A stretch of DNA of 55,074 nucleotides from a virus (taxonomy: Duplodnaviria > Caudoviricetes). Of the stretch, positions 2,678 through 38,541 are shown one piece after another; the stretch's first letter is position 1; every line of letters begins with the position of its first letter. The notes under the pieces were generated by a model, which searched no databases, had not been told where the DNA came from, and saw only the letters and a list, made by a program, of their open reading frames with translations. The position numbers were made by a program, and so were the translations under genes. The stretch covers positions 1 through 55,074 of the IMG/VR virus record IMGVR_UViG_3300032290_000758; one strand, given 5' to 3'.

Positions 2678-2953
2678 ATGTTAGATTTTAACCAAGCACT
2701 GAAGGGCTTAGATGGAACAGAAGTAAAGGATATGGACGGTACGTCCATTACCCTTGGTAAGCTTTTGTCTTCTCAGTTAGCTTCAGCAAACAAAGGAGAT
2801 GCACTGAAAATGTTTACATGGGCACAGAAGATTTACAACGGTGATACGTTGGATCTTGACCCCAGTGATGAGTCTACTCTTAAAGACTTTATTAAGTCTA
2901 ATGAGCAATTGACTGTTCTGGCTAAGGCTCAGTTATTAAGTGTATTGAAGTAA
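2678..2953 (+). CDS. Hypothetical protein
   Basis: 91-aa ORF directly after the promoter. Confidence 0.6.
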   Translation: MLDFNQALKGLDGTEVKDMDGTSITLGKLLSSQLASANKGDALKMFTWAQKIYNGDTLDLDPSDESTLKDFIKSNEQLTVLAKAQLLSVLK

Positions 2954-2959
2954 TTAATC

Positions 2960-3223
2960 ATGGCGAACAGTTTAGACAGGGTAAAGAGCTGGATCAGCCC
3001 TATGATTATCTCCGGATTTAGTGTGGTTTTATGGAGCCTACTACAGGAGATAAGAACGGATGTGAAATCTCTACTGCAGGCAGAGGCAGCTACAAATATT
3101 AAAATCGAGAATCTTGATAGAAGAGTAACCAGTCTTGAAGCCTTTATCGCCCAGAATAGACTGTTCGCTATTAAACCTGAAGAAATTGAAATACCTAGGC
3201 GTACTACTGCAAAACGTAACTAA
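2960..3223 (+). CDS. Single-TM membrane protein with coiled coil (holin/antiholin-like)
   Basis: Hydrophobic segment ISPMIISGFSVVLWSLL followed by a coiled coil; located in the lysis cluster. Confidence 0.5.
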   Translation: MANSLDRVKSWISPMIISGFSVVLWSLLQEIRTDVKSLLQAEAATNIKIENLDRRVTSLEAFIAQNRLFAIKPEEIEIPRRTTAKRN

Positions 3224-3916: not shown

Positions 3917-4176
3917 TGGCAGCAAAGGATGGTAAGCACGCTTGGGAAGCAACGGGTGTGAACCCTAAGACGGATCGGGAGATTACGTTAAAAGGCGGCG
4001 AGTCTAAGCATCGTGGCAAGTGGGGTACACAAGGTGGTAAGAGTAAGGGCCAAGTTAAAAGCTTCTTTGCTAGACACAAAAAGAATGACAGTCCTAAAGC
4101 CTATATCAATATGTTGAACTGGAAGTACGGATCTCGCATAGGCAAATCTGTGAATATCCCCAATAGTAAGTTTTAA
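3898..4176 (+). CDS. Small basic phage protein
   Basis: K/R/G-rich with 'KSFFARH'; ATG at 3898 preferred. Confidence 0.5.
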   Translation: MALFRVMAAKDGKHAWEATGVNPKTDREITLKGGESKHRGKWGTQGGKSKGQVKSFFARHKKNDSPKAYINMLNWKYGSRIGKSVNIPNSKF

Positions 4177-6244: not shown

Positions 6245-9200
6245 ATGCCCGTAACTAAGAAAACATTTCTAGGCGGCGTCAATCAAGACGATGCCGATTT
6301 CCTCTTGGACCCTAAGGAATACCTTGGAGCCCTAAATATCCGATTTGCTACATCAGAAGGTGGCGAGGTCGGGAGAATTACTAACATTGAAGGGACGGTA
6401 ATAAAGAATACAACTATCAATTCTTCAGGGAATACACTGTCATTTGTTTTACCTAGCGGTATTAATAGAACCATAGGCGCTTATGAAGATACAGATAGCC
6501 GCCGCATGTTCTGGTTTAATTGGAACTCTAACGGCAACCATGGCATTTACTGTTATGATTCTGACGACGATCTGATCTATACTGTATTAAAGAATACAAT
6601 ACTTGACTTCCAGTCTGACAAGTTTATCCATAGCGTATCTATGGCGGATAGTCTTTTGTATTGGACTGATAACTATAACGAACCTAGAAGAATTAATGTA
6701 GACGCGGCGATTAAAATGAATCATCCGTCTTACAACTATTCTAGCTCATATATACCATTTACTGTTAAGGTCACTACAGCTGGATCTGGTTATGTGAATG
6801 GAACATATAATAATGTTCCACTTACAGGTGGGTCAGGCGCAGGCGCCACTGCTACTATTGTTGTGTCTGGTGGTGCTATTACATCTGCGACTATCGTGTT
6901 TGGTGGATCTGACTACTTACTAAATGATACGCTAAGCGCAAGTAATGTTAACTTAGGTGGTACAGGATCTGGTCTTGTTCTAACCATTAATATGGTCCTC
7001 AACAATTCTGTTTTGACTGTAATTAGAAACCAGCCTTGGGCACCACTAACTGTGGCTAAGTCACAGACTGTTGGGCAGACTAACAACTTTATAGCAGACG
7101 AATCATTCCAATTTTCCTACCGTTTTGTATACAGGGATAACGAGGTGAGTACATTCTCTCCCCTTTCTAAACTTATTGACTACAACTCTATACTAGAGAA
7201 TATAGCAAATCTTAATACCGTAGATATTGCCATGCCTCTTGATCAGAAGATCGAGCTTGATGTAATCAAGGTTGAGTTTGCTGTAAAGTATATGACTGGT
7301 GGTGCTGTTCTTGTGTTTAAGACCATCGAAGATCTATCTTCACTTACCGCACACAACGCAGGTACTGCTATTACGTTTAAGTTCTACAACGATACAATTG
7401 GCGTAGCGGTTGACGGTGCTAGTGCTGTGAAACCATACGACTCTGTTCCTCTTAAGGCAAAGACCTTGGAGATTGCAAAAAACAGATTGTTCTTGGGTAA
7501 TCTTACTGATGGATACGATACACCTAAGACCACTTCACTCAGCATTGGAAATGCTATTGCTGATACTGCTGTTGTCAAGGGTGGTTGGTATATGCTGGTG
7601 TATAGAAAGTTTGGCGTAACAAATATTAACTACATCTTAAGGGTTGATAATATTACTTCGAACGCTGGCTACTATCAAACAAACCCGGTTACCCTTGGTA
7701 CACCTCTACCCTCTACTGTAAATTACGGTAGCATGGTGTACATGGGAATTGGATTAAGTGGTATTTCCATATATCTTAATGTTGTTATGCCAGATATATA
7801 CCAGCTGTACTACCTAAATCAGGACGCGACTATCACTCAGAGTAGTGGCCTACCTATAGGTACTGGCCTAGTTGGGTCTACTGTATTTAAGTCAGACTCC
7901 TATTATAGAGCTGGCGTAGTATTCTTTGACGGGGCTGGACGTAAGTCTGGTGTTGTTTCAAAAGATAACATTCGTGTTAGTATCCCTGATCGGGATTATA
8001 ACGGTACTACTTTCTATACTGGTGTAAACTGGAGTTTGAATAATATTTCTGCAGTTTCAGAAATTCCTAACTGGGCAACACACTACGCTGTTGTTAGGAC
8101 TAAATGTCTGCGTGCTAGCCTGTTCTTCCAGATGCGTGCTGACTCTATTCACTACATTCCTAAAAATGATGATGGTACCTATGGCGCCGTAAAGCATTTC
8201 TATGCTAGTAACGACTTTGGGGTGGCAATCAATGTGAAGAGTTTATTTAGTGCTGGTCTTGGTTATAGCTTTAACGCTGGAGATATTCTTAAGCTATACA
8301 TATCAGGAGTAGGTATATACAGCCTAAAGATTAAAGACACTTATGGTAGTTATATTATTACTGAGCTGGTTAATCTGGGTAACACATCCTCCCTTGTGGC
8401 TTTGTATGAGGTATACACTTCTTATATTCCAAGTACTACTGAATACTTTTATGAAGTCGGTCAGATTTATAAAGTAAACAATCAGGGTACCCCGAGTCGC
8501 CAGTACAGTAATGTAGCTGGAACCTTTACAGGTGACGTTACACTAGTACAAAGGACTATCGGAGTTAGTACATTCTTAGCAGAGGCGATGAGCCCTATTG
8601 ATAAATACTGGCAGAACTGGTACACAGATGCTGGGCGTGTTAATATTGAAGTAGAAGATGGTCAGCGCGAGAAGCCTGTTACAATAAGTTACTCTAATGT
8701 GATCATCCCGGGTACTAGATCTAATGGTCTAAGTTCATTTGATGTTCTTGATTTTACCACGGTTCCTCAGGAGCTTGGGGGTATAAGCAGACTTGTCTTC
8801 ACATCAAAAGTACAATCAGAGGGCACAGTTCTTCTTGGTATTGGAGAAGGCGAGACAGCAAGTATATATATTGGAGAAACACAAGTATTCGACAACACTG
8901 GGTCTTCGTTCCTTGCTAAGAGCACAGGTGTTATTGGTAATGTGAATGTATTAAAAGGATCGAAAGGAACCATACATCCAGAAAGCGCTTTTGAGTGGGA
9001 AGGATCTGTAATATTCTTTGATGCTAATCACGGTGCTTGGGTTAGATATGACGGTAATGGACTATATCCAATATCAGACAATAAAATGATCCGCTACTTC
9101 AGAAGAGTAGGTCAGGATATATCTAACTACTACAAGAATCCTTCTGAATATAATTTAATAAATCCTAACCTTCCATTACGTGTACTTGGAGCAGTTGATC

Positions 9201-10252
9201 CCTTCCATGACGAATATATTTTATCAATGCCTAGAATGTTCTTGAATCCCAAGAATAGTATTCTGGCTGATATGGAACTTGCTAGTATTACTACAGCATT
9301 TACAACAGTAGCTCCTCAGTTAACTGCAACTCCAAACACACTTTCTGGATTTACTTACGTGTTAAACTCTGGTCCTTCTACTTCTCAGTCGTTCACTATA
9401 TCCGGAACAAACTTAATACCCAACGGAACGGTAAGCGTACCATGCTCATCTTCTTTTGAGGTATCTACAGATAACATAACATTCTCATGTCTTGCAACCC
9501 TACCATACACAGGGTCTGGAACCTTTGCAATCAATACGATATATGTTCGTATGAAAGCCGGAAAAGCTACAGCAAGTTATAATGAAATACTAACAATCAC
9601 CGGTGGTGGCGCATCTACTACGGTATCTGTTCAAGGGTCTGTAACTCAGCCTTCAACTCCGACTATCATCATAAATCCTAATGTGATGGGCGGACTTTCT
9701 TATGTAATTAACAACGGTCCTTCAATAAGTGTGGGTGTTGCAGTAACTGGTTACAACCTAAGCCCAGCTAGTGGTAACGTATCAATACCGACTTCTTCGT
9801 TCTTTGAGTTCTCTCTTGATGGTACTACATATTCTACCAGCTTAACCTTACCATATACAGGTGGCGCTCTTGCTAATACCAATGTTATAGTAAGATTAAA
9901 GGCTGGACAGTCTATCTCTAGCTACACTGAGGTACTTAACGTAACAGGTGGAAGTGCGTCTGCTAGTTTGACTTTATCTGGTAATGTAACCGATATTATG
10001 CCAGCCGCGTATGTATATGATGCGGGAGTTGGTATGAGCGTGTCGCAGGCTTGTAACACATATGTAAGTAGCCCGCAGAGTGTATACTCAATGGACGATC
10101 CGTCACAGTTCGGAGTTGGATCTCAGATATTCATTGACCTAGCCCTTACATCTCCGTTGACGGGATACACTCACATTTTCATTAATGGATCTAACTGGGA
10201 TCTTAACCCTTCTAACGGTGTAGTTATTGCTTACTCTTCAATTCAGTGCTAA
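6245..10252 (+). CDS. Tail stabilization (muzzle) protein, N-terminal part, with appended Ig-like repeats
   Basis: 'F.GG.NQDDAD..L...EY..ALNIR', 'LLYWTDNYNEPRRIN', 'FSYRF.Y.DNEVS.FSP', 'NRLFLGNL.DGYD' are characteristic of crAss-like stabilization proteins. Confidence 0.75.
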   Translation: MPVTKKTFLGGVNQDDADFLLDPKEYLGALNIRFATSEGGEVGRITNIEGTVIKNTTINSSGNTLSFVLPSGINRTIGAYEDTDSRRMFWFNWNSNGNHGIYCYDSDDDLIYTVLKNTILDFQSDKFIHSVSMADSLLYWTDNYNEPRRINVDAAIKMNHPSYNYSSSYIPFTVKVTTAGSGYVNGTYNNVPLTGGSGAGATATIVVSGGAITSATIVFGGSDYLLNDTLSASNVNLGGTGSGLVLTINMVLNNSVLTVIRNQPWAPLTVAKSQTVGQTNNFIADESFQFSYRFVYRDNEVSTFSPLSKLIDYNSILENIANLNTVDIAMPLDQKIELDVIKVEFAVKYMTGGAVLVFKTIEDLSSLTAHNAGTAITFKFYNDTIGVAVDGASAVKPYDSVPLKAKTLEIAKNRLFLGNLTDGYDTPKTTSLSIGNAIADTAVVKGGWYMLVYRKFGVTNINYILRVDNITSNAGYYQTNPVTLGTPLPSTVNYGSMVYMGIGLSGISIYLNVVMPDIYQLYYLNQDATITQSSGLPIGTGLVGSTVFKSDSYYRAGVVFFDGAGRKSGVVSKDNIRVSIPDRDYNGTTFYTGVNWSLNNISAVSEIPNWATHYAVVRTKCLRASLFFQMRADSIHYIPKNDDGTYGAVKHFYASNDFGVAINVKSLFSAGLGYSFNAGDILKLYISGVGIYSLKIKDTYGSYIITELVNLGNTSSLVALYEVYTSYIPSTTEYFYEVGQIYKVNNQGTPSRQYSNVAGTFTGDVTLVQRTIGVSTFLAEAMSPIDKYWQNWYTDAGRVNIEVEDGQREKPVTISYSNVIIPGTRSNGLSSFDVLDFTTVPQELGGISRLVFTSKVQSEGTVLLGIGEGETASIYIGETQVFDNTGSSFLAKSTGVIGNVNVLKGSKGTIHPESAFEWEGSVIFFDANHGAWVRYDGNGLYPISDNKMIRYFRRVGQDISNYYKNPSEYNLINPNLPLRVLGAVDPFHDEYILSMPRMFLNPKNSILADMELASITTAFTTVAPQLTATPNTLSGFTYVLNSGPSTSQSFTISGTNLIPNGTVSVPCSSSFEVSTDNITFSCLATLPYTGSGTFAINTIYVRMKAGKATASYNEILTITGGGASTTVSVQGSVTQPSTPTIIINPNVMGGLSYVINNGPSISVGVAVTGYNLSPASGNVSIPTSSFFEFSLDGTTYSTSLTLPYTGGALANTNVIVRLKAGQSISSYTEVLNVTGGSASASLTLSGNVTDIMPAAYVYDAGVGMSVSQACNTYVSSPQSVYSMDDPSQFGVGSQIFIDLALTSPLTGYTHIFINGSNWDLNPSNGVVIAYSSIQC

Positions 10253-33281: not shown

Positions 33282-33623
33282 TTAAGCGCCAATCTTTCTA
33301 ATCATTTGGATCACCTCTTCAATACCCTCACCCATAGGCGATTCTTTTTCTGTAGCCAATCTGCTTAGATTATCATATAAGAGCGCATACTCATCATCTG
33401 ATCTGTATCGTGACTTATGTAGCTTTCTGTAGTGAACGATTGACGTATGATCTTTACCCATCAGTCTTCCTACTTCTACTGTAGTCATCCCATAATGCTT
33501 GGTAAGGATGTTGCCGATGGCAAAGCGGATCCGGACAACGTCAGCTGATTTTCTTCTGGTTTTTCTGATATCGATTTTACGGAGACTGATACCTGCTTCG
33601 CATAGTTGGTCGAATAACTGCAT
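33282..33623 (-). CDS. DnaA C-terminal (domain IV)-like HTH protein
   Basis: 'KTRRK..VVRIR...MTTVEVGRLMGKDHTSIVHY' resembles the DnaA 'RDHTTV.H' motif. Confidence 0.75.
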   Translation of the reverse strand: MQLFDQLCEAGISLRKIDIRKTRRKSADVVRIRFAIGNILTKHYGMTTVEVGRLMGKDHTSIVHYRKLHKSRYRSDDEYALLYDNLSRLATEKESPMGEGIEEVIQMIRKIGA

Positions 33624-33778
33624 GATTCGTATTTTTTTATTAGGTCAATGATTGCTTCTGATAATTCCTCATTAATTAGTTTTAGCCTCCTCACTGTTGG
33701 TATGTTCTTCTCTTCTAGCTTCGTTAACTCCTCGTTGATTAGTAGAAATACTTTTTTTGCTGCTTGTAGTCGGTTCAT
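33485..33778 (-). CDS. Hypothetical coiled-coil protein
   Basis: ATG after an AACCAAACCAT leader; long overlap with the next gene. Confidence 0.4.
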   Translation of the reverse strand: MNRLQAAKKVFLLINEELTKLEEKNIPTVRRLKLINEELSEAIIDLIKKYESCSYSTNYAKQVSVSVKSISEKPEENQLTLSGSALPSATSLPSIMG

Positions 33779-33899
33779 ATGGTTTGGTTAATAGGTTATA
33801 TATGTAATTGTACCACTCATTTTCCGGTAGTGGATGTTCAGGGTAAACAGTTTTTACTTTCATTTTTATAGGATTTGGTAAAATAATTGTATTCATCAT
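33672..33899 (-). CDS. Hypothetical protein
   Basis: 'KTVYPEHPLPENEWYNYI'. Confidence 0.5.
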   Translation of the reverse strand: MMNTIILPNPIKMKVKTVYPEHPLPENEWYNYIYNLLTKPYEPTTSSKKSISTNQRGVNEARREEHTNSEEAKTN

Positions 33900-33927
33900 T
33901 AGATATGATTTAAAGATTTCTTTCTCC

Positions 33928-34242
33928 TCAATCTGTAGTTGCCTCGCTCTCTAGATCAGTGCCGAATGAATCGGATACATCATCATTATTATTTTTTGCG
34001 GTTGTGTTTGCATCGTAAATAATTTGAAGGTTTTCACCAACCCATTGAAATGATATGGTTTTAGGCTTGTATAGTGCATGCTGTGCCCACCATTGAAGAA
34101 GATAGCCTAGCTTACCTATTTCCAGTTCTTTAAATTGATGCACTGGTATGCCTTCTGGTTTAAATGCACCAATATAGTATGGGTACAGGGTGAAAGACTG
34201 GCGATCTTTAATAGCTGCAAGTACTTGGTCAAATAGCATCAT
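33928..34242 (-). CDS. Hypothetical protein
   Basis: ORF coupled to the upstream stop (ATGA overlap). Confidence 0.55.
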   Translation of the reverse strand: MMLFDQVLAAIKDRQSFTLYPYYIGAFKPEGIPVHQFKELEIGKLGYLLQWWAQHALYKPKTISFQWVGENLQIIYDANTTAKNNNDDVSDSFGTDLESEATTD

Positions 34243-34445
34243 CGGAATGTGATTTTTTTGTTTAGTTTAGGGCTATGGCACTTTGACTTCCGCCTAATGT
34301 ATTCACAGATATTTCCAACGGGTATACCCGTAAACTTTGAAGCTTCTGATCTTGACTCGAAAGTTCCGAGCAGTATTTTTTCTTCGATGTCAAATACCTT
34401 AGTGCGAACGCCGGATACAAATAGCCCGATTCGTTCTAGTCTCAT
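34239..34445 (-). CDS. NUMOD1-like DNA-binding protein
   Basis: 'VFDIE...LGTFESRSEASKFTGI..GNI'. Confidence 0.65.
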   Translation of the reverse strand: MRLERIGLFVSGVRTKVFDIEEKILLGTFESRSEASKFTGIPVGNICEYIRRKSKCHSPKLNKKITFR

Positions 34446-34463
34446 ATATCTCTTCGATATCTT

Positions 34464-34664
34464 TTATTGTGATATTTTGGTTATTAAAATCCCGTCAGGA
34501 GTTCTTTCTACTAGAAAACCATTTCTTTCAAGCGTGCTGAGATGTTCTTCTTGAGACATAATGTATCCATCAGTTTTTGAGAATCCTACTGAATCATGTA
34601 ATTGTCCAGTCAATGTTTCTTTTATTTTGATGCTGGACTTGCGGCTGAATGCATTCTCGTTCAT
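34464..34664 (-). CDS. Hypothetical early protein
   Basis: Small ORF in the early operon. Confidence 0.5.
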   Translation of the reverse strand: MNENAFSRKSSIKIKETLTGQLHDSVGFSKTDGYIMSQEEHLSTLERNGFLVERTPDGILITKISQ

Positions 34665-34855
34665 GGGTTGTTTTTCAGGGTTGTTAATACGTCTTTCATT
34701 CTGTCAAGCTTGTTTAATACTGCTGCTAGCTCTATCCCTTTTAATTCTTGCTTGATTTTGTTCTCTAGCTGTAGACCTTCATCATATCTACGATGATCAT
34801 CCGTCATGACATAGTAAGGGTCATAATCAGCTAACATTTTTATTATATTTTTCAT
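34661..34855 (-). CDS. Hypothetical early protein
   Basis: 'YDPYYVMTDDHRRY..G' small phage protein motif. Confidence 0.6.
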   Translation of the reverse strand: MKNIIKMLADYDPYYVMTDDHRRYDEGLQLENKIKQELKGIELAAVLNKLDRMKDVLTTLKNNP

Positions 34856-34869
34856 TTGGAATGCTTTTT

Positions 34870-34925
34870 AAAAAATAATCCCCCCTAGTGCCTTACCAAA
34901 ACCCATTAGAAGGCAGTTCGGGGGG
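34870..34925 (-). terminator. Long hairpin with internal loop followed by U-tract (terminator/attenuator)
   Basis: Minus: CCCCCC-GAAC-UGCCUU-loop-AAGGCA-CUAG-GGGGG then AUUAUUUUUU. Confidence 0.55.
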
Positions 34926-34952
34926 TGTCCCATCATATTAATGTCCTCAGGG

Positions 34953-35129
34953 TTATGGACAGATCGCTACTAAACCTAGATTGATTGCTCTCTCTCCTTC
35001 ATCTGGCGTGGCGAACTCTATAATTAAGGGCCATTGCCTGCGATCATCGTATTGACCAATGATCTCAAACTCGAATTCTTCATTCTCAAGCTCTCTAACA
35101 TCTGAGGGTGTGTGGATTAAGTATTTCAT
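34953..35129 (-). CDS. Hypothetical acidic early protein
   Basis: ATG at 35129 just after the upstream stop. Confidence 0.5.
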   Translation of the reverse strand: MKYLIHTPSDVRELENEEFEFEIIGQYDDRRQWPLIIEFATPDEGERAINLGLVAICP

Positions 35130-35131
35130 AT

Positions 35132-35302
35132 TTATATTTTTTGATACCGCTTCCATCCGGCTTTTTTAATGTCGGCTTCAGCTAATTCTCTGTATTCTTT
35201 TCGCAGTTCGGCGCGCTTCTTTTTGTCTTTGCATTTGTGGTACTGCTCCCACACCTCGTCAATGCGATCTAAGACAACGAGGTTGTCGTAAACCTTATTC
35301 AT
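35132..35302 (-). CDS. Small basic early protein (56 aa, not in ORF track)
   Basis: MNKVYDNLVVLDRIDEVWEQYHKCKDKKKRAELRKEY...; ATG 18 nt after the hammerhead cleavage site. Confidence 0.55.
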   Translation of the reverse strand: MNKVYDNLVVLDRIDEVWEQYHKCKDKKKRAELRKEYRELAEADIKKAGWKRYQKI

Positions 35303-35314
35303 GGCCTATGTTTT

Positions 35315-35459
35315 GGTTAAGACGATGCGGATACCCGTTGCGGAGTGGCGATTTGTCCCCCGCCGTTTGCCCTATCGGGATCGCTCATTCGGGGTATCTT
35401 TTACACGCTTGTACTTCACGTGTGCATCGTTTCGGATAATGAATCCTCATCAATTAACC
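35315..35459 (-). ncRNA. Type I hammerhead ribozyme, U3 core variant, with 95-nt insertion in stem III
   Basis: Minus: GGUUAA-UUGAUGA-GGAU(UCAUU)AUCC-GAAA-CGAUGC...[95 nt]...GCAUCG-UC^UUAACC; all three stems are perfectly paired. Confidence 0.8.
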
Positions 35460-35471
35460 TCTGTTTGGCAT

Positions 35472-35765
35472 CTAGTTGTTGGATGTGATTACATTAATTA
35501 AACAGTCTTTGTATTTGTAAGGGTCAGATAAATATCTTTTGACTTCTGATTTTTCTAATTCAGATGGCTCGCCTAATAATTCTAAAGGGATGGAATATAT
35601 TAGATGCCCAAATTCCGCTCCATTTTTTAGTTCAAATCCAATATCGGCATAAAGGCTCTGCCCGTACTCCTCTAATTCAGGGTCGTCTTCTTTGCGTTCA
35701 TATAAAACAAGCGCACCTTTGGGCCAGCCTTTAAAATCCTGATTTAGTTTAAATAGATCTTGCAT
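35472..35765 (-). CDS. Hypothetical early protein
   Basis: 97-aa ORF with A-rich leader. Confidence 0.55.
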   Translation of the reverse strand: MQDLFKLNQDFKGWPKGALVLYERKEDDPELEEYGQSLYADIGFELKNGAEFGHLIYSIPLELLGEPSELEKSEVKRYLSDPYKYKDCLINVITSNN

Positions 35766-35791
35766 AGGTTTAATTTTTTGTGGTTCGGGGA

Positions 35792-35875
35792 TTACATTGA
35801 ATACTTGTCTGCAATAAGGTTGACGAACTTTAGAACTACAATGAGTACTATTAGTAAAGCAATAAGCTGTTTCAT
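35792..35875 (-). CDS. 27-aa hydrophobic peptide (not in ORF track)
   Basis: MKQLIALLIVLIVVLKFVNLIADKYSM; A-rich leader. Confidence 0.45.
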   Translation of the reverse strand: MKQLIALLIVLIVVLKFVNLIADKYSM

Positions 35876-35934
35876 GATTTTTATTTTATAGGTTATTTTA
35901 TTAGCGGTGGCATTTTTGACTGCCTACTGCATTT

Positions 35935-36210
35935 CTATTGGCAGCACAGATCCCATGGTTCAAGATTTTTGATTTTTTCTTCATCGAGGTCGAACATTTC
36001 GATGATAAAAGAGGCCAAATCTTGACGAGTCTCTTCTGAGCTGAGGTCGTTGGTTCCTATCTGGAATGCGACCTGTGTACCTGTCATGCCTAGGGATCGG
36101 GAGCAAAACTTACTGTCTTGACCTAGATAGAACTCTTTTCCAAATGCTTTAAGTGTCCAGTCACGACCGAAGCCATATGCCCCGGGAGTAGTTTCGATAA
36201 TAGGTTTCAT
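35935..36210 (-). CDS. Hypothetical early protein
   Basis: 'FYLGQDSKFCSR.LGM' conserved-looking core. Confidence 0.6.
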   Translation of the reverse strand: MKPIIETTPGAYGFGRDWTLKAFGKEFYLGQDSKFCSRSLGMTGTQVAFQIGTNDLSSEETRQDLASFIIEMFDLDEEKIKNLEPWDLCCQ

Positions 36211-36223
36211 GGTAATAGGGTTT

Positions 36224-36281
36224 GGTGAGGACTGCCTCCGGTCTCGATCCGGGCGCCATCAAAATGGGGGCAGTTCGGGGG
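36224..36281 (-). ncRNA. tRNA-like three-way-junction element
   Basis: Minus: an ACUGCC/GGCAGU stem encloses CCAU(UUUG)AUGG and the T-arm-like CCGG(AUCGAGA)CCGG, followed by CCUCACCA. Confidence 0.45.
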
Positions 36282-36296
36282 AAATGTAGTTATACT

Positions 36297-36491
36297 CTAT
36301 AATAGAGAAGCACGTCTACAAAGAATGGCCCAGCGGATATCTCTCATGATCTGTTGAGGATCGCCGCCTAATTGCTTAAGGATATACTTGGTGCGGTTAT
36401 GGGTGGAGAAAGAAGCTTCAGTTCTCCGGATCACGACGCCATTTGCTTTGGCGGTGAAAATGGGGGTTTTGATGCGGGTTCTGGTTTTCAT
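36297..36491 (-). CDS. Basic hypothetical protein (first early gene)
   Basis: ATG 8 nt after the hammerhead; R/K-rich. Confidence 0.55.
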   Translation of the reverse strand: MKTRTRIKTPIFTAKANGVVIRRTEASFSTHNRTKYILKQLGGDPQQIMRDIRWAILCRRASLL

Positions 36492-36499
36492 GGTATAGC

Positions 36500-36550
36500 A
36501 GGGTTTCGTCCTTCTGGACTCATCAGTACGGGAATATACCCGTAGACCCT
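36500..36550 (-). ncRNA. Type III hammerhead ribozyme
   Basis: Minus: AGGGUC^UACGGG(UAUAUU)CCCGUA-CUGAUGA-GUCC(AGAA)GGAC-GAAA-CCCU; perfect core and stems; cleavage between 36545 and 36544. Confidence 0.95.
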
Positions 36551-36781
36551 TTGACTTACCGGGAAGATATCAGTGATAAATCGCCTGACTCATTCGCCCT
36601 GTGCAGGTTAGTCCTTTCGGTTCTCTAACCCCAACACCCTAACTGCAACTGGTGCAGGTTTGGCGCGACATTTGGAGTATATTCACTCCGGCTACTCATT
36701 TGCGAGCCTGTTCGATGCCCGCTGAGATTTTAAGAACTAAGCTATCTGATATCTAGAGTTAAACTCTATTTCCGATAGCCA
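36551..36781 (-). ncRNA. Structured 5' leader/ncRNA released by the hammerhead
   Basis: ORF-free and GC-richer than its flanks; hairpins GCUAUC/GAUAGC (enclosing UAGAGUU/AACUCUA), GGAGU/ACUCC and GGUUAG..CC-GAAA-GG..CUAACC. Confidence 0.5.
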
Positions 36782-36784
36782 GTG

Positions 36785-36815
36785 CGATATTATCAACCAA
36801 TTTTCATACTCCAAA
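36785..36815 (-). promoter_or_regulatory. Host sigma-type early promoter
   Basis: Minus: TTTG-N19-TAATATCG, matching the Bacteroidetes -33/-7 layout (TTTG-N19-21-TAnnTTTG) with two mismatches. Confidence 0.5.
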
Positions 36816-36911
36816 TATTTATTACACTTTTTTTCAAAAATTGTAATATTTACTTATATATAAGTTAATCGAAAACACTTAAATGCATGTTTTTTAGGGT
36901 TCGGGGGCATA

Positions 36912-37232
36912 CTAAAGCCTATAATTCCGTAAGTAGTTAATAACATAAAATAGATACTCCCTTCCCTTAGCACTAAGAGTATACTGGAAATCTGTCTTCT
37001 CAATCAATCCCGATCTAATTAGCTTATGTAGGGACTGCGCTAGATAACTAGGGTCATCCTGCTTTCCGTACTTCTTGCATAAAGATTTAAGCATGGCAAA
37101 GCGCATAGACCCGCGACGCTTCAACATCATGAGCAGGGCCAGCTGGTGATGGTTGGGAACAGGGATATCCAGACGCGCCGACATCTTGCGCAGACATTGC
37201 TCCCAGATTAGTAGGTACTTATCGAGTATCAT
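36912..37232 (-). CDS. Winged-helix (MarR-like) transcription regulator
   Basis: 'SLHKLIRSGLIEK...YTLSAKGREYL'. Confidence 0.7.
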   Translation of the reverse strand: MILDKYLLIWEQCLRKMSARLDIPVPNHHQLALLMMLKRRGSMRFAMLKSLCKKYGKQDDPSYLAQSLHKLIRSGLIEKTDFQYTLSAKGREYLFYVINYLRNYRL

Positions 37233-37263
37233 TTTAGAAAAGAGGGAGGGGGGTTATTAGGAT

Positions 37264-37299
37264 TGTATACACACACGCGCAAACACACGCACGCGCGCA
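37264..37299. repeat. Alternating purine-pyrimidine (CA/CG) tract
   Basis: TGTATACACACACGCGCA-A-ACACACGCACGCGCGCA. Confidence 0.7.
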
Positions 37300-37626
37300 G
37301 GTTTCCCCACATTCCGCGTTTCCTTTTCCAACTAAAAGTTTCACAGTTTCTCATATAGGTGTGCAACTCTGATATTATATATTACTGTGTAGCAGTCTTT
37401 TATGGTTATGTAGTTGTTAACTGAGTCTTAATAGGAGCCCTAAAATGGAATTCAAAATTGGCCATTCATACCCCACCCAGTCTCGCATTCCGAGTTCGCG
37501 TTTTGGGCCCGACCCGGTCCAAAATATATATAACCCCCACCCTGCGTCCACATGAATCACTCCATTTTTTTGGGGGTGGTTTTTCACTTGTTTTTGCATG
37601 GGGTTGTGTATTTAATAAGAGGCTCG

Positions 37627-38091
37627 TTATTGGCCGATTTCAAAATGCATGGCGTCATATCCACGGTCTGCTCCGTAGCTAATAAACCCGTTCTTTTTAA
37701 AGATGGCGAGCATCTCTTTGTATTCTGGTTTAGCGAACTGGGCGTTTGGCCATTTAGTCTTGAGGCCATTTCTTGCTGGGTCCAGATCGATGGCAATTCC
37801 CCAAGCATGTCGAGACCATTTAGTTTTTGATCCTCTCATGGTTCTGAGGTTAACGCATCCGCCGAACAGGTCGATCCCTAGTTCTTGGATCTTGGGCAGT
37901 TGGTAGATTTCTAGTAGTTGTTCGAAGACGGCTTGGAAGTTTGGCGCAACTAGTTTGTGGCATTGCATTTTCTGAACAGTGGCTTTCGTATCCCATGCGA
38001 TTCGCATCGGGTATGGGAGTTTTAGTACGGTTAGGCTGGAGATATCTCCGGGTTGTCCGTACTTCTCGATGATTTGTTTGTCTGTGAGCAT
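37627..38091 (-). CDS. Endolysin, M15-family L-Ala-D-Glu peptidase
   Basis: 'R.MRG...WSRHAWGIAIDL' and 'DAMHFE' Zn-peptidase motifs. Confidence 0.9.
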   Translation of the reverse strand: MLTDKQIIEKYGQPGDISSLTVLKLPYPMRIAWDTKATVQKMQCHKLVAPNFQAVFEQLLEIYQLPKIQELGIDLFGGCVNLRTMRGSKTKWSRHAWGIAIDLDPARNGLKTKWPNAQFAKPEYKEMLAIFKKNGFISYGADRGYDAMHFEIGQ

Positions 38092-38188
38092 TCTCAAAAA
38101 TACTTGAACAATAAAGCTATTTTATGAGATTTTAACAGATGTTAATATCTTATAATATATAATAGATAGTTTTCCGATATTTGTCCGG

Positions 38189-38472
38189 CACACCTTTCGG
38201 GATATTTCTACGGCTCGGGTGTGATGCCAGAGTAACGTCTCTGGCAGTGCGCAAGAGTGGGATAGCAGACGATGGCGCAATCCGGATGCAAAGGGAGGAA
38301 GGATAGGTCTGCAGGCTGGCACTCAGTCTTAAAGTAGCTCCCAGATCGGTTGGCGGTGTGACCAAACCGGGACAGTTGATGCGGAGGCCGACGGCGCTCA
38401 AGCAAAACTGAAAGCAGAGGCTGAGGACATAGTCATGTCTCTCAGTCTCGCGAAGACCTCAAACGCTAAGCA
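38189..38472 (+). ncRNA. Putative large structured ncRNA (~280 nt)
   Basis: GC-rich with no + strand ORF; preceded by GATATTTG; helices CACACC/GGTGTG, TGCCAGAG/CTCTGGCA, GAGTG/CACTC, GCAGAC/GTCTGC, CGGTT/AACCG, GAGGCTGAG-GACAT/ATGTC-CTCAGTCTC. Confidence 0.6.
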
Positions 38473-38541
38473 ATTAGATCAGAGTATAGAATATGACACC
38501 CTATTTTAGAGATTTATAGATTAGTTCCAAGATAATTTGCG

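What the first reader, a model, noticed from the sequence alone, without database searches (positions are those of the whole stretch)
34870..36815. Candidate system: ribozyme-punctuated early operon
One predicted transcript, starting near 36781, passes in order through a ~235-nt structured leader, hammerhead 1, a gene, a tRNA-like element, three genes, hammerhead 2 with an insertion, two genes and an attenuator hairpin. Both cuts fall shortly before a start codon. Self-cleavage would release a discrete ncRNA and mRNA segments with 5'-OH ends. The 36544-35321 segment (~1.2 kb) would carry both 5'-OH and 2',3'-cyclic phosphate, the RtcB substrate for circularisation. Hammerheads are known in phages, but their roles are largely unexplained. 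This arrangement suggests programmed processing or circularisation of host-takeover mRNA.
Basis: partly seen in the sequence, partly recalled or inferred. Interest (0 to 1): 0.88.

Follow-up and report, generated by a model that had tools for sequence, protein, structure and literature searches.

The report
Phage operon punctuated by ribozymes and mini-tRNAs
A block of small phage genes is separated by one intact hammerhead ribozyme, one probably crippled hammerhead, and a tRNA-like mini-element from a large unnamed family, all placed to cut the long transcript into short-leader mRNAs.

Summary
HH1 (36552-36498, minus strand) is a complete type III hammerhead. It heads the same kind of operon in at least 7 related phage contigs, and its stems covary.

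HH2 (35459-35315) belongs to a very common phage type I hammerhead family. It carries U instead of the invariant C3, seen in 0 of 96 folded relatives. Its stem III holds an insert of about 95 nt, and two other natural strains have replaced its 5' half. It is probably slow or dead.

The "tRNA-like element" (36281-36226) scores 76 bits against a model built from relatives. The family has about 55 distinct members in related freshwater phages. Each has a C-run, a 7-8 bp acceptor-like stem, a T-arm-like hairpin and a CUCAUCAAAAC trailer, with an ATG 17-21 nt downstream. These elements sit in the same slots as hammerheads.

Hammerheads clustered around phage genes, and the ideas of processing or circularisation, were published in 2011. 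Circularisation of the 1.2-kb segment is unlikely.

The mini-tRNA family is absent from Rfam and from my literature searches. Its apparent interchangeability with hammerheads is the new part. No cleavage has been shown. The promoter was not found.

The parts
36912..37232 (-). 106-aa winged-helix-like regulator gene upstream of the leader
   Evidence: There are weak hits to phrog_4278 (E 1.8e-4) and phrog_2440, a transcriptional regulator (E 4e-3). A similar 108-aa ORF sits at the same place in relative L081, at 2876-3202. I judged the likeness by eye from the two translations.
36546..36911 (-). Non-coding leader. Its 3' part (about 36665-36560) is conserved with relatives L193/L204.
   Evidence: No ORF of 50 aa or more lies on the minus strand here. 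The fold has z = -2.9. Blocks are shared with L193, and two helices change on both sides (CUGCA/UGCAG against CUCGG/CCGAG, and GGGUUAG/CUAACCU against GGGUUGC/GUAACCU), read from alignment A5. Only 2 distinct homologous sequences were found, so covariation cannot be tested statistically. There is no Rfam hit.
36498..36552 (-). HH1: type III hammerhead, predicted cut between 36545 and 36544
   Evidence: RF00008 scores 43.0 bits (gathering score 48.5), E 3e-7. The MFE fold reproduces the three stems at -19.2 kcal/mol, z = -2.95. Seven distinct homologues at operon heads have an invariant core, and 11 of 16 pairs show changes on both sides.
36297..36491 (-). 64-aa ORF (gene A)
   Evidence: ORF list. 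A similar 64-aa ORF lies in relative L081 at 6547-6741 (likeness judged by eye). There are no family hits.
36226..36281 (-). tRNA-minihelix-like element. C-run 36281-36277; P1 36276-36269 pairs with 36236-36229; hairpin 36267-36256; T-arm-like hairpin 36252-36238; trailer from 36228; ATG at 36210.
   Evidence: It scores 76.1 bits (E about 6e-20) against model R2, which was built from 10 relatives without the window. In the subtype alignment 97% of cells are paired, and 5 of 13 pairs change on both sides. It is 84% identical to L081 over 64 nt. ARAGORN and Rfam give nothing.
35935..36210 (-). 91-aa ORF (gene B)
   Evidence: ORF list. tblastn relatives lie next to hammerheads in L074, L033 and L107.
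35792..35875 (-). 27-aa hydrophobic ORF (gene C)
   Evidence: ORF list only. It is followed by UCCCCGAACC. The G of that motif is changed in strains X3 and X4 (35786).
35472..35765 (-). 97-aa ORF (gene D)
   Evidence: ORF list. No relatives were found in IMG/VR. Window 35448-35696 is replaced by 243 other letters in contigs of runs X3 and X4.
35315..35459 (-). HH2: type I hammerhead with U3 (35453) and an insert of about 95 nt in stem III. Predicted cut between 35321 and 35320.
   Evidence: The MFE fold gives the three-way junction. The descriptor finds stems of 6, 4 and 7 pairs only when U is allowed at position 3. It is the best window hit of family model R1: 22.4 bits, E about 2e-4, a local match at 35452-35412. 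Stem I GGUUAA/UUAACC and stem II GGAU/AUCC are identical to many family members.
35132..35302 (-). 56-aa ORF (gene E), ATG 18 nt after the HH2 cut
   Evidence: ORF list. No family hits.
34953..35156 (-). 67-aa ORF (gene F; an internal ATG at 35129 would give a shorter form)
   Evidence: ORF list and direct reading.
34868..34925 (-). Terminator-like hairpin that starts with the same CCCCCCGAACUGCC motif and is followed by AUUAUUUUUU
   Evidence: The fold is -25.4 kcal/mol, z = -2.15. Contigs of other strains diverge at 34881 and 34838.

Best explanation
The window is a nearly complete phage contig from fresh water. Its portal protein is related only to phages of Flavobacteriia. On the minus strand, a regulator gene and a conserved non-coding leader are followed by six small ORFan genes that are most likely transcribed together.

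Three kinds of RNA 'punctuation marks' interrupt the transcript, each ending a few to about 20 nt before a start codon.
1. A type III hammerhead (HH1) would cut off the leader RNA, leaving it a 2',3'-cyclic phosphate end. The first mRNA would keep a 5'-OH and a 5' hairpin.
2. A 56-nt tRNA-minihelix mimic has a C-run, an acceptor-like stem and a T-arm-like hairpin. I infer that host tRNA-processing enzymes cut it: RNase P at the C-run/G1 boundary, RNase Z or a similar enzyme after the stem. This would free a short A/C-rich leader for the next gene.
3. A type I hammerhead (HH2) would do the same job by self-cleavage. In this genome it carries a U3 core mutation and is probably impaired or decaying.

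The net effect is to convert a polycistronic early transcript into mono- or oligocistronic mRNAs with short unstructured leaders. This would suit hosts that initiate translation without a Shine-Dalgarno sequence. The repeated elements also act as recombination joints for swapping gene cassettes.

Shown here: the elements, their families, covariation, positions and synteny. Inferred: co-transcription, every cleavage, the enzymes involved and the benefit.
For: Host group. Portal matches in cultured phages: 87 records, of which Flavobacterium 68, Cellulophaga 15, Tenacibaculum 2, Maribacter 1 and uncultured 1, at 25-28% identity.

HH1. The core is canonical at 43 bits. Seven distinct operon-head homologues have 11 of 16 covarying pairs.

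HH2 family. A pattern that left position 3 free gave at least 117 IMG/VR loci. 119 instances (96 unique) fold as full type I hammerheads, with up to 5 per locus, and in 80 of 96 the first ATG lies 18-33 nt after the cut. HH2 has the same stem I, the same stem II and the same ATG distance of 18 nt.

Mini-tRNA family. Scanning 19 loci from the pattern scan plus G001 and the window gave 57 unique well-formed elements. I dropped 2 as chance (no trailer or ATG). Of the remaining 55, 53 have a stop triplet 0-8 nt before the C-run and 44 have an ATG 17-21 nt after P1. In subtype a, 100% of 219 cells are paired, 43 cells change on both sides, 0 of 500 shuffles reach this, and the loop G-UUCGA-N-UC is invariant, matching the tRNA T-loop consensus as I recall it. 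The window's subtype is 97% paired, and the window element scores 76.1 bits.

Same slots. The order 'type III hammerhead, then type I hammerheads and/or mini-tRNAs' is seen in L189, L191, L193, L194, L195, L200 (6 of 19 loci), G001 and the window. Phage G005 carries mini-tRNA elements in this operon, and I ran no hammerhead descriptor over the whole record. The downstream product of a hammerhead (UUAAUCAAAAAC..AUG) resembles the mini-tRNA trailer (CUCAUCAAAAC..AUG).

Recombination joints. In strains X3 and X4 the replaced segment ends exactly at the HH2 core (35447).

Precedent. Clustered hammerheads cleave in vitro and were proposed to process phage transcripts (PMC3088659).
Against: - No RNA data exist for this phage, so no cut, end or transcript has been observed.
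- No promoter was identified.
- HH1 scores below Rfam's gathering threshold (43 against 48.5).
- One minor contig in run X4 joins 36543 to 36500, skipping HH1. What lies between is not known.
- HH2: none of the 96 unique folded relatives has U3. All 15 T-at-position-3 matches in IMG/VR lack stems I and III. The 5' half is absent in two strains.
- In the window and in L081 the T-arm-like loop (AUCGAGA, UUCGUGA) departs from the T-loop consensus. ARAGORN and the Rfam tRNA model do not recognise any of these elements.
- The strong sequence conservation of CCCCC-GAACUG is not something RNase P or RNase Z is known to need (my recollection).
- The 9-mer CCCCCGARC is over-represented genome-wide on one DNA strand, including antisense to late genes where no helix follows it. 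This hints at a further or different, possibly DNA-level, role.
- A genuine tRNA in the G001 operon does not share these flanks.
Confidence: 0.6

Rival explanations
1. HH1 and HH2 both cleave, and the 1.2-kb RNA between them (36544-35321), with a 5'-OH and a 2',3'-cyclic phosphate, is circularised by host RtcB or by hammerhead-catalysed ligation.
For: The chemistry is correct for any RNA flanked by two hammerheads (established knowledge, recalled). Both elements lie on one strand with no terminator-like site between them in the scan.
Against: HH2 carries U3, unlike all 96 folded relatives, and its 5' half is missing in two strains. The segment contains a conserved processing-type element at 36281-36226. 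Perreault et al. report that they could not detect circular or spliced products from clustered hammerheads (PMC3088659). In related phages the number, kind and spacing of the marks vary freely, so no particular circle is conserved.
Confidence: 0.06
2. The repeated elements (hammerheads and mini-tRNAs with their conserved flanks) are mainly DNA-level 'mobile regulatory cassettes'. They provide short identical sequences for recombination that shuffles ORFan genes among phages, like PeSL motifs of T4-type phages. RNA cleavage would be secondary or vestigial.
For: The replacement in strains X3 and X4 ends exactly in the HH2 core, and other strain breakpoints lie at the terminator-like element (34881, 34838). 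The flanks CCCCCGAACUG and CAGUUCCUCAUCAAAAC are conserved in sequence, not merely in pairing. The genes between the marks differ among relatives. The 9-mer is polar on the DNA, independent of gene direction. PeSLs are a precedent (PMC2839356 and PMC4122927, search listing and abstract starts only).
Against: Hammerhead cores are invariant while the stems covary. The T-arm shows multiple compensatory pair types and a conserved T-loop sequence. The fixed 17-21 nt distance to the ATG (44 of 55) and the start right after a stop triplet (53 of 55) point to selection on the RNA and on expression. The two roles are not exclusive.
Confidence: 0.2
3. The mini-tRNA elements are not cut by RNase P or RNase Z. 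They could be binding sites for a phage or host protein that recognises CCCCC-GAACUG. Possibilities are a sequence-specific endoribonuclease, an antiterminator (nut-like: a linear box plus a hairpin), a 3'-end protector of the upstream mRNA, or a decoy for tRNA-directed host defences.
For: The sequence of the C-run and the first six P1 pairs is invariant in 17 of 17 subtype-a members, although only part of it was fixed by my search. The same motif precedes quite different structures: type I hammerheads in G001 at 4100 and in a contig of run X17, a terminator-like hairpin in the window at 34924, and simple hairpins. At least four interior types share only P1, a terminal hairpin and the flanks.
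Against: Subtype a has a 7-bp stem stacked on a 6-bp stem with a consensus T-loop, plus a D-loop-like AUGGU strand (the D-loop likeness is judged by eye against the G001 tRNA). This is what enzymes that recognise tRNA shape read. No candidate protein was identified, and the neighbouring ORFs have no family hits.
Confidence: 0.2

Closest known systems
Clustered hammerhead ribozymes flanking genes in prophages (Perreault et al. 2011, PMC3088659; passages and section 8 read)
   Same: Several hammerheads of different types lie on one strand and flank single genes or short blocks in phage DNA. Processing into single-gene mRNAs was proposed there, and circular or spliced products were considered.
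   Different: Here the array is mixed with a second, non-ribozyme element class in the same slots. One hammerhead has a U3 core change and a large stem III insert. The type III copy is fixed at the operon head behind a conserved leader. Arrays in related contigs are denser: 8 type I copies in L104 in my list.
HHphage of haloviruses HF1/HF2 (same paper, Discussion passage)
   Same: A hammerhead lies 13 nt upstream of the start codon of the first ORF of an early polycistronic transcript. The mapped 5' end lies within 3 nt of the cut.
   Different: That host is archaeal, the ribozyme is a single one, and it is a core variant that depends on high magnesium.
tRNA punctuation of mitochondrial transcripts, and the MALAT1/mascRNA tRNA-like 3'-end signal (recalled, not looked up here)
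   Same: tRNA-shaped elements inside long transcripts recruit RNase P and RNase Z to define the ends of the flanking RNAs.
   Different: The phage elements are 41-50 nt and have no anticodon arm and no D stem. They carry conserved linear flanks (a C-run and CUCAUCAAAAC). They are in a bacterial virus. No cleavage has been shown.
HDV-like theta ribozymes next to tRNAs in gut phages (Kienbeck et al. 2024, PMC10879173; search listing and abstract start only)
   Same: Small self-cleaving ribozymes and tRNA-type RNAs cooperate in RNA processing in Caudoviricetes genomes.
   Different: The ribozyme class is different (HDV-like). Real tRNAs are the product there. In this window the tRNA-like parts look like signals rather than products.
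PeSL promoter/stem-loop cassettes of T4-type phages (PMC2839356 and PMC4122927; listing and abstract starts only)
   Same: Repeated regulatory motifs flank ORFan genes in early or hyperplastic regions and mark the joints of gene replacement between close strains.
   Different: PeSLs are promoter-terminator composites. Here the repeats are ribozymes and tRNA-like RNAs, and no promoter is evident.

Membership tests
Hammerhead ribozyme, type III (Rfam RF00008): HH1 | Conserved core C3 U4 G5 A6 N7 G8 A9 / G12 A13 A14 / A15.1-U16.1 / H17 | tested here: met
   CUGAUGA, GAAA and GUC are aligned to the model consensus. The strict descriptor hits it.
Hammerhead ribozyme, type III (Rfam RF00008): HH1 | Three helices around the core, with stems I and II closed and stem III open | tested here: met
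   MFE fold. Across 7 homologues, 11 of 16 pairs change on both sides.
Hammerhead ribozyme, type III (Rfam RF00008): HH1 | Score at or above Rfam's gathering threshold | tested here: not met
   43.0 bits against 48.5. Rfam also scores the clear hammerheads of relative G001 at only 23-26 bits.
Hammerhead ribozyme, type III (Rfam RF00008): HH1 | Self-cleavage after H17 | not testable with these tools
   No RNA holder was listed among the sequencing runs, and contigs cannot show RNA ends.
Hammerhead ribozyme, type I (phage GGAU/AUCC stem II subfamily): HH2 | C3 pairing with G8 in the core | tested here: not met
   U at 35453. None of 96 unique folded relatives has U3, and none of the 15 T3 pattern matches in IMG/VR folds. 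Natural U3 is reported in print only together with A8 (PMC3088659 section 8).
Hammerhead ribozyme, type I (phage GGAU/AUCC stem II subfamily): HH2 | Remaining core (U4 to A9, G12 A13 A14, A15.1-U16.1, C17) and three helices with stem I open | tested here: met
   (stems of 6, 4 and 7 pairs). The family model gives a local hit of 22.4 bits, E about 2e-4, the best in the window.
Hammerhead ribozyme, type I (phage GGAU/AUCC stem II subfamily): HH2 | Family habit: cut 18-33 nt before a start codon, and a short stem III hairpin | tested here: inconclusive
   The distance of 18 nt fits (80 of 96 lie at 18-33 nt). The stem III region is about 105 nt by my count, longer than in 95 of the 96 relatives.
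Clustered phage hammerheads (Perreault 2011) | Two or more hammerheads on one strand flanking genes in phage DNA | tested here: met
   The phage nature rests on terminase, portal and tail genes.
tRNA | Cloverleaf with an anticodon arm, detectable by tRNA finders | tested here: not met
   ARAGORN finds none in the window. Neither ARAGORN nor Rfam puts a tRNA at the elements of G001 and G005. There is no Rfam hit at 36281-36226.
tRNA-like minihelix (acceptor stem stacked on a T arm) | A 7-bp terminal stem directly followed on its 3' side by a hairpin with a 7-nt T-loop (G53 U54 U55 C56 R57 A58 .. C61; consensus recalled) | tested here: inconclusive
   Met in subtype a in 17 of 17 members. The window's copy has a 4-bp stem with loop AUCGAGA (A at position 54), one base between this hairpin and P1, and one A/C mismatch or bulge in P1.
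Intrinsic terminator (element at 34925-34868) | G+C-rich hairpin followed by a U-run | tested here: met
   -25.4 kcal/mol, then AUUAUUUUUU. The consensus scan did not list it.

The most novel reading that the evidence does not exclude
Freshwater Flavobacteriia-type phages may use a previously undescribed class of 41-50-nt mini-tRNA signals. Each has a C-run, a GAACUG acceptor-like stem, a D-loop-like strand or small hairpin, a T arm and a CUCAUCAAAAC trailer. These would be interchangeable alternatives to hammerhead ribozymes for cutting early polycistronic transcripts just upstream of each start codon. That would be a viral, bacterial-world counterpart of mitochondrial tRNA punctuation: the phage can either bring its own RNA catalyst or borrow host RNase P and RNase Z.
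Probability: 0.4. Interest if true: 0.8.

Novelty: new variant of a known kind. Interest (0 to 1): 0.62.

Why it matters
What bacterial and phage hammerheads are for has been open since their discovery. Here hammerheads and a tRNA-shaped element occupy the same intercistronic slot, with the same distance to the start codon and similar downstream leaders, across many related phages. That gives a concrete, testable answer: the job is to create a defined short 5' leader for each cistron, and different cutters can do it.

It also supplies a new structured-RNA family of about 55 distinct members with strong covariation. The family has no Rfam model and could be tested directly with RNase P and RNase Z.

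The hosts are probably Bacteroidota, which initiate translation without a Shine-Dalgarno sequence (recalled). The result may therefore bear on how internal cistrons are translated in that phylum.

Finally, it shows that these elements are breakpoints of gene-cassette exchange between strains.

Tried and rejected
RNA and tRNA scans.
- Rfam at gathering thresholds over the whole window gave nothing.
- ARAGORN gave nothing.

Proteins and relatives.
- PHROGs and Pfam on the six small ORFs and four neighbours gave only weak regulator hits and the M15 endolysin.
- Relatives of genes D and B in IMG/VR by single-protein query: none.
- blastn of 33500-38500 against cultured phages: no match.
- Endolysin relatives: 27 loci, with no hammerhead in any of them. 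The endolysin travels separately from the operon.

Sequencing runs.
- No RNA holder was listed.
- The one run guessed to be RNA (X17) was re-labelled 'probably DNA' when laid, and holds only short, diverged pieces.

Collection scans.
- Metagenome scan with a 33-nt stretch of HH2's stem III: nothing. I did not use the second scan that was allowed.
- Genome collection scan for the mini-tRNA pattern: 12 hits, all in unrelated coding sequence of G+C-rich genomes. None (0 of 12) is a real element, so neither a host nor a prophage was identified this way.
- blastn of one mini-tRNA element against cultured phages gave only two short chance-level hits. The same search with a type I hammerhead gave short core matches in Flavobacterium and other phages.
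- Leader scan with a 17-mer: 14 loci, of which only L193 and L204 (one sequence) are true homologues. Leader covariation could not be tested.

Ideas dropped.
- I considered that CCCCC-GAA-C-hairpin-GUC is the 3' two-thirds of a split, trans-completed hammerhead. No CUGAUGAGGGG-type partner exists in the window: 13 loose matches against 8.6 expected, none on the right strand or in the right context. The interiors are also too varied, so I dropped the idea.
- The motif as an ECF-type or Bacteroidota promoter: no shared -10 element, and no TAnnTTTG nearby. I could not support it.
- The tRNA in G001's operon does not share the mini-tRNA flanks.

Limits.
- Supplementary files of PMC3088659 (alignments, Figures S1-S8) were not seen. 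They may already contain type I hammerheads of this subfamily.
- That the mini-tRNA family is not in print rests only on searches and on Rfam release 15.

Full report
What the window is.
The window is one whole IMG/VR virus record of 55,074 bp, estimated 80% complete. It encodes a large terminase, portal, head and tail proteins, a primase/helicase, a RecE-like exonuclease and an integrase-like protein. Cultured-phage records with a portal match number 87: Flavobacterium 68, Cellulophaga 15, Tenacibaculum 2, Maribacter 1 and one uncultured, at 25-28% identity. A Flavobacteriia host is therefore likely but inferred. Near-identical DNA occurs in freshwater and subsurface metagenomes of several studies.

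Checking the observation.
- a 106-aa winged-helix-like gene (37232-36912);
- about 365 nt without an ORF;
- HH1;
- a 64-aa ORF;
- the 'tRNA-like' element;
- ORFs of 91, 27 and 97 aa;
- HH2;
- ORFs of 56 and 67 aa;
- a hairpin with a U-run.
None of the small ORFs has a Pfam or PHROG family. Gene B has tblastn relatives beside hammerheads in other contigs. By eye, gene A has a counterpart in relative L081.

HH1.
- Rfam's type III model aligns 36552-36498 end to end at 43.0 bits. This is below the gathering score of 48.5, with E 3e-7 in 4 kb and 4e-6 in the window.
- All core residues are canonical, and the cut is predicted at 36545|36544.
- The MFE fold is the hammerhead fold (-19.2 kcal/mol, z = -2.95).
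- A descriptor I wrote finds it as the only strict hammerhead in the window. 200 first-order Markov sequences of the same length gave 0.035 such hits each.
- Seven distinct type III hammerheads at equivalent positions in related contigs have an invariant core, and 11 of 16 pairs change on both sides.
- HH1 was invariant in the contigs of runs X3 and X4 that cover it. One minor X4 contig joins 36543 to 36500, skipping the ribozyme, and what lies between is unknown.

HH2.
- The sequence 35459-35315 folds by MFE into stem I GGUUAA/UUAACC, stem II GGAU/AUCC and stem III CGAUGC/GCAUCG around UUGAUGA...GAAA...GUC, with a branched insert of about 95 nt in stem III (z only -1.87).
- I scanned IMG/VR with the stem II part and left position 3 free.
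- Of the instances, 119 (96 unique) fold as complete type I hammerheads. Many have exactly the same stem I. There are up to five per locus. In 80 of 96 the first ATG lies 18-33 nt after the cut. HH2 is therefore a homologue and not a chance match.
- A covariance model built from 71 family members gives its best window hit on HH2's core: 22.4 bits, E about 2e-4. The match is local only, because of the insert.
- All 96 folded relatives have C3. The 15 instances with T there have no stems. A dedicated scan for T at that position returned the same 15 and nothing else.
- Published natural U3 variants covary with A8 (PMC3088659 section 8). HH2 keeps G8.
- In contigs of runs X3 and X4, from two studies, window 35448-35696 is replaced by 243 other letters. 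This segment holds most of gene D, the stem I 5' strand and the core strand of HH2 down to G8. The similarity ends at A9 (35447).
- I conclude that HH2 is a decaying or at best slow copy. Its activity is untested.

The tRNA-like element.
- A blastn comparison of the window with all fetched loci showed 84% identity over 64 nt between window 36284-36221 and L081 (alignment).
- L081 is a syntenic relative. It has a similar regulator gene, about 650 nt of non-coding sequence, a type III hammerhead, three type I hammerheads and then this element.
- Every copy starts with CCCCCGA(A/G)C. Searching this 9-mer in five related records gave 20 copies in G001 and 22 in G005. The reversed control gave 0, and the other three records had none.
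- In the early operons of G001 and G005 the motif opens a helix: GAAC... pairs with ...GUUC 40-50 nt downstream, and GAGC with GCUC.
- A pattern scan of IMG/VR returned 19 loci. Together with G001 and the window these hold 57 unique well-formed elements. I dropped two as chance.
- The common plan is: a stop triplet 0-8 nt upstream (53 of 55), a C-run, a 7-8 bp P1, a variable interior ending in a hairpin that abuts the 3' strand of P1, the trailer CUCAUCAAAAC, and the first ATG 17-21 nt after P1 (44 of 55, counted).
- Subtype a (17 sequences) has a 10-nt strand containing an invariant AUGGU, and a 6-bp stem with an invariant G-UUCGA-N-UC loop, which is the tRNA T-loop consensus as I recall it. 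All 219 cells pair, 43 cells change on both sides, and 0 of 500 shuffles reach this value.
- The window's subtype b (11 sequences) is 97% paired, with compensatory changes in 3 of 4 T-arm-like pairs. The small hairpin CCAU/AUGG never varies.
- A model built from the ten non-window members scores the window element at 76.1 bits.
- Caveat: my selection required CCCCGA(A/G)C and a helix, so the outer P1 pairs are fixed by construction.
- Rfam (E<=5) and ARAGORN see nothing at these elements.
- I found no description in four literature searches.

Architecture.
In 6 of the 19 loci (L189, L191, L193, L194, L195, L200), and also in G001 and the window, a type III hammerhead comes first. It is followed on the same strand by type I hammerheads and/or mini-tRNA elements every 250-1000 nt. 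In the other 13 loci the head of the operon may lie outside the fetched stretch. The RNA downstream of a type I cut (UUAAUCAAAAAC..AUG) resembles the mini-tRNA trailer. The two element classes therefore look interchangeable.

Leader and ends.
- The leader's 3' part is conserved with L193/L204 and shows two helices with changes on both sides. Only two distinct sequences exist.
- A second leader class (G001, L189, L191/L195) shares AGUAACC and GAUUUAUC with the first.
- Its function is unknown. HH1 would give it a defined 3' end.
- I could not find a promoter.
- The block ends in a terminator-like hairpin that begins with the same CCCCCCGAACUGCC motif.

Mechanism.
The best-supported reading is intercistronic processing into short-leader mRNAs. 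The cuts would be made by self-cleavage at the hammerheads and, by inference, by host RNase P and RNase Z at the mini-tRNAs. A tRNA gene in G001's operon lacks an encoded CCA, which fits a host that uses RNase Z, but this is weak. The sequence conservation of the C-run and GAACUG, and the strand-polar genome-wide 9-mer, are not explained by this model. They keep a protein-recognition or DNA-level role open.

Comparison with what is known.
Clustered hammerheads, their in vitro cleavage, the processing hypothesis and the failed search for circles are in Perreault et al. 2011. The finding as written is therefore a new member of a known arrangement. The mini-tRNA family and its exchangeability with hammerheads appear to be new.

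Verdict.
Circularisation is unlikely. Interest is moderate to high because of the mini-tRNA family, not because of the hammerheads themselves.

Noticed in passing
window, 10 sites: + strand 19166, 23847; - strand 44426, 36907, 36281, 34924, 30321, 29664, 20053, 14744: The 9-mer CCCCCGARC occurs 10 times, against about 0.8 expected from length alone by my arithmetic, and 8 of the 10 are on the minus strand. In relatives G001 and G005 it occurs 20 times (16+/4-) and 22 times (4+/18-), with 0 for the reversed control. Many copies lie antisense to late genes with no helix following. It could be a Chi-like or other polar DNA signal, or a signal on read-through RNA. It is unexplained.
   Followed up: partly
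window 34501-34450 (-): This is the second-best hit of the type I hammerhead family model (15 bits, E about 0.07). It is hammerhead-shaped, but with CUGACGG and CAAAA in place of CUGAUGA and CGAAA. It may be a decayed hammerhead at the end of the 66-aa ORF.
   Followed up: no
window 35448-35696; 36501-36542; 34838/34881: Strain differences in other metagenomes fall at the RNA elements. A 249-nt segment is replaced by 243 other letters, ending in the HH2 core (X3, X4). One X4 contig skips HH1. Contigs diverge at the terminator-like hairpin.
   Followed up: partly
window 35394-35380 (-), inside the HH2 stem III insert: The insert contains CCCCGAAUGAGCGAU. This resembles both the C-run motif and the AAUGAGCGA strand of mini-tRNA subtype c (for example L197 1982-2049), so the insert may derive from such an element. 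I judged this by eye.
   Followed up: no
window 36665-36560 (-); L193 8990-9110: There is a conserved leader domain directly upstream of the type III hammerhead, with compensatory changes in two helices. It has no Rfam match, and only two distinct sequences are known.
   Followed up: partly
L175 (G001) 9405-9493 and 9720-9814: A tRNA (Rfam 35 bits) with a long insertion and no encoded CCA lies at the end of the relative's punctuated operon. A second tRNA-like gene there is called by ARAGORN with an odd anticodon loop.
   Followed up: no
L104 2808-6441; L120; L125; L146: Some viral contigs carry very dense arrays of type I hammerheads, each before a small gene. My list has 8 in about 3.6 kb of L104, and 5 each in L120 and L125. 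The first family census counted up to 5 per locus.
   Followed up: no
X17 contig over window 35382-35460: A wastewater contig carries an HH2-like hammerhead (79 nt, 7 differences). Its upstream flank, read from the loose-end letters on the other strand, holds the same C-run motif directly before stem I. G001 position 4100 shows the same arrangement.
   Followed up: no
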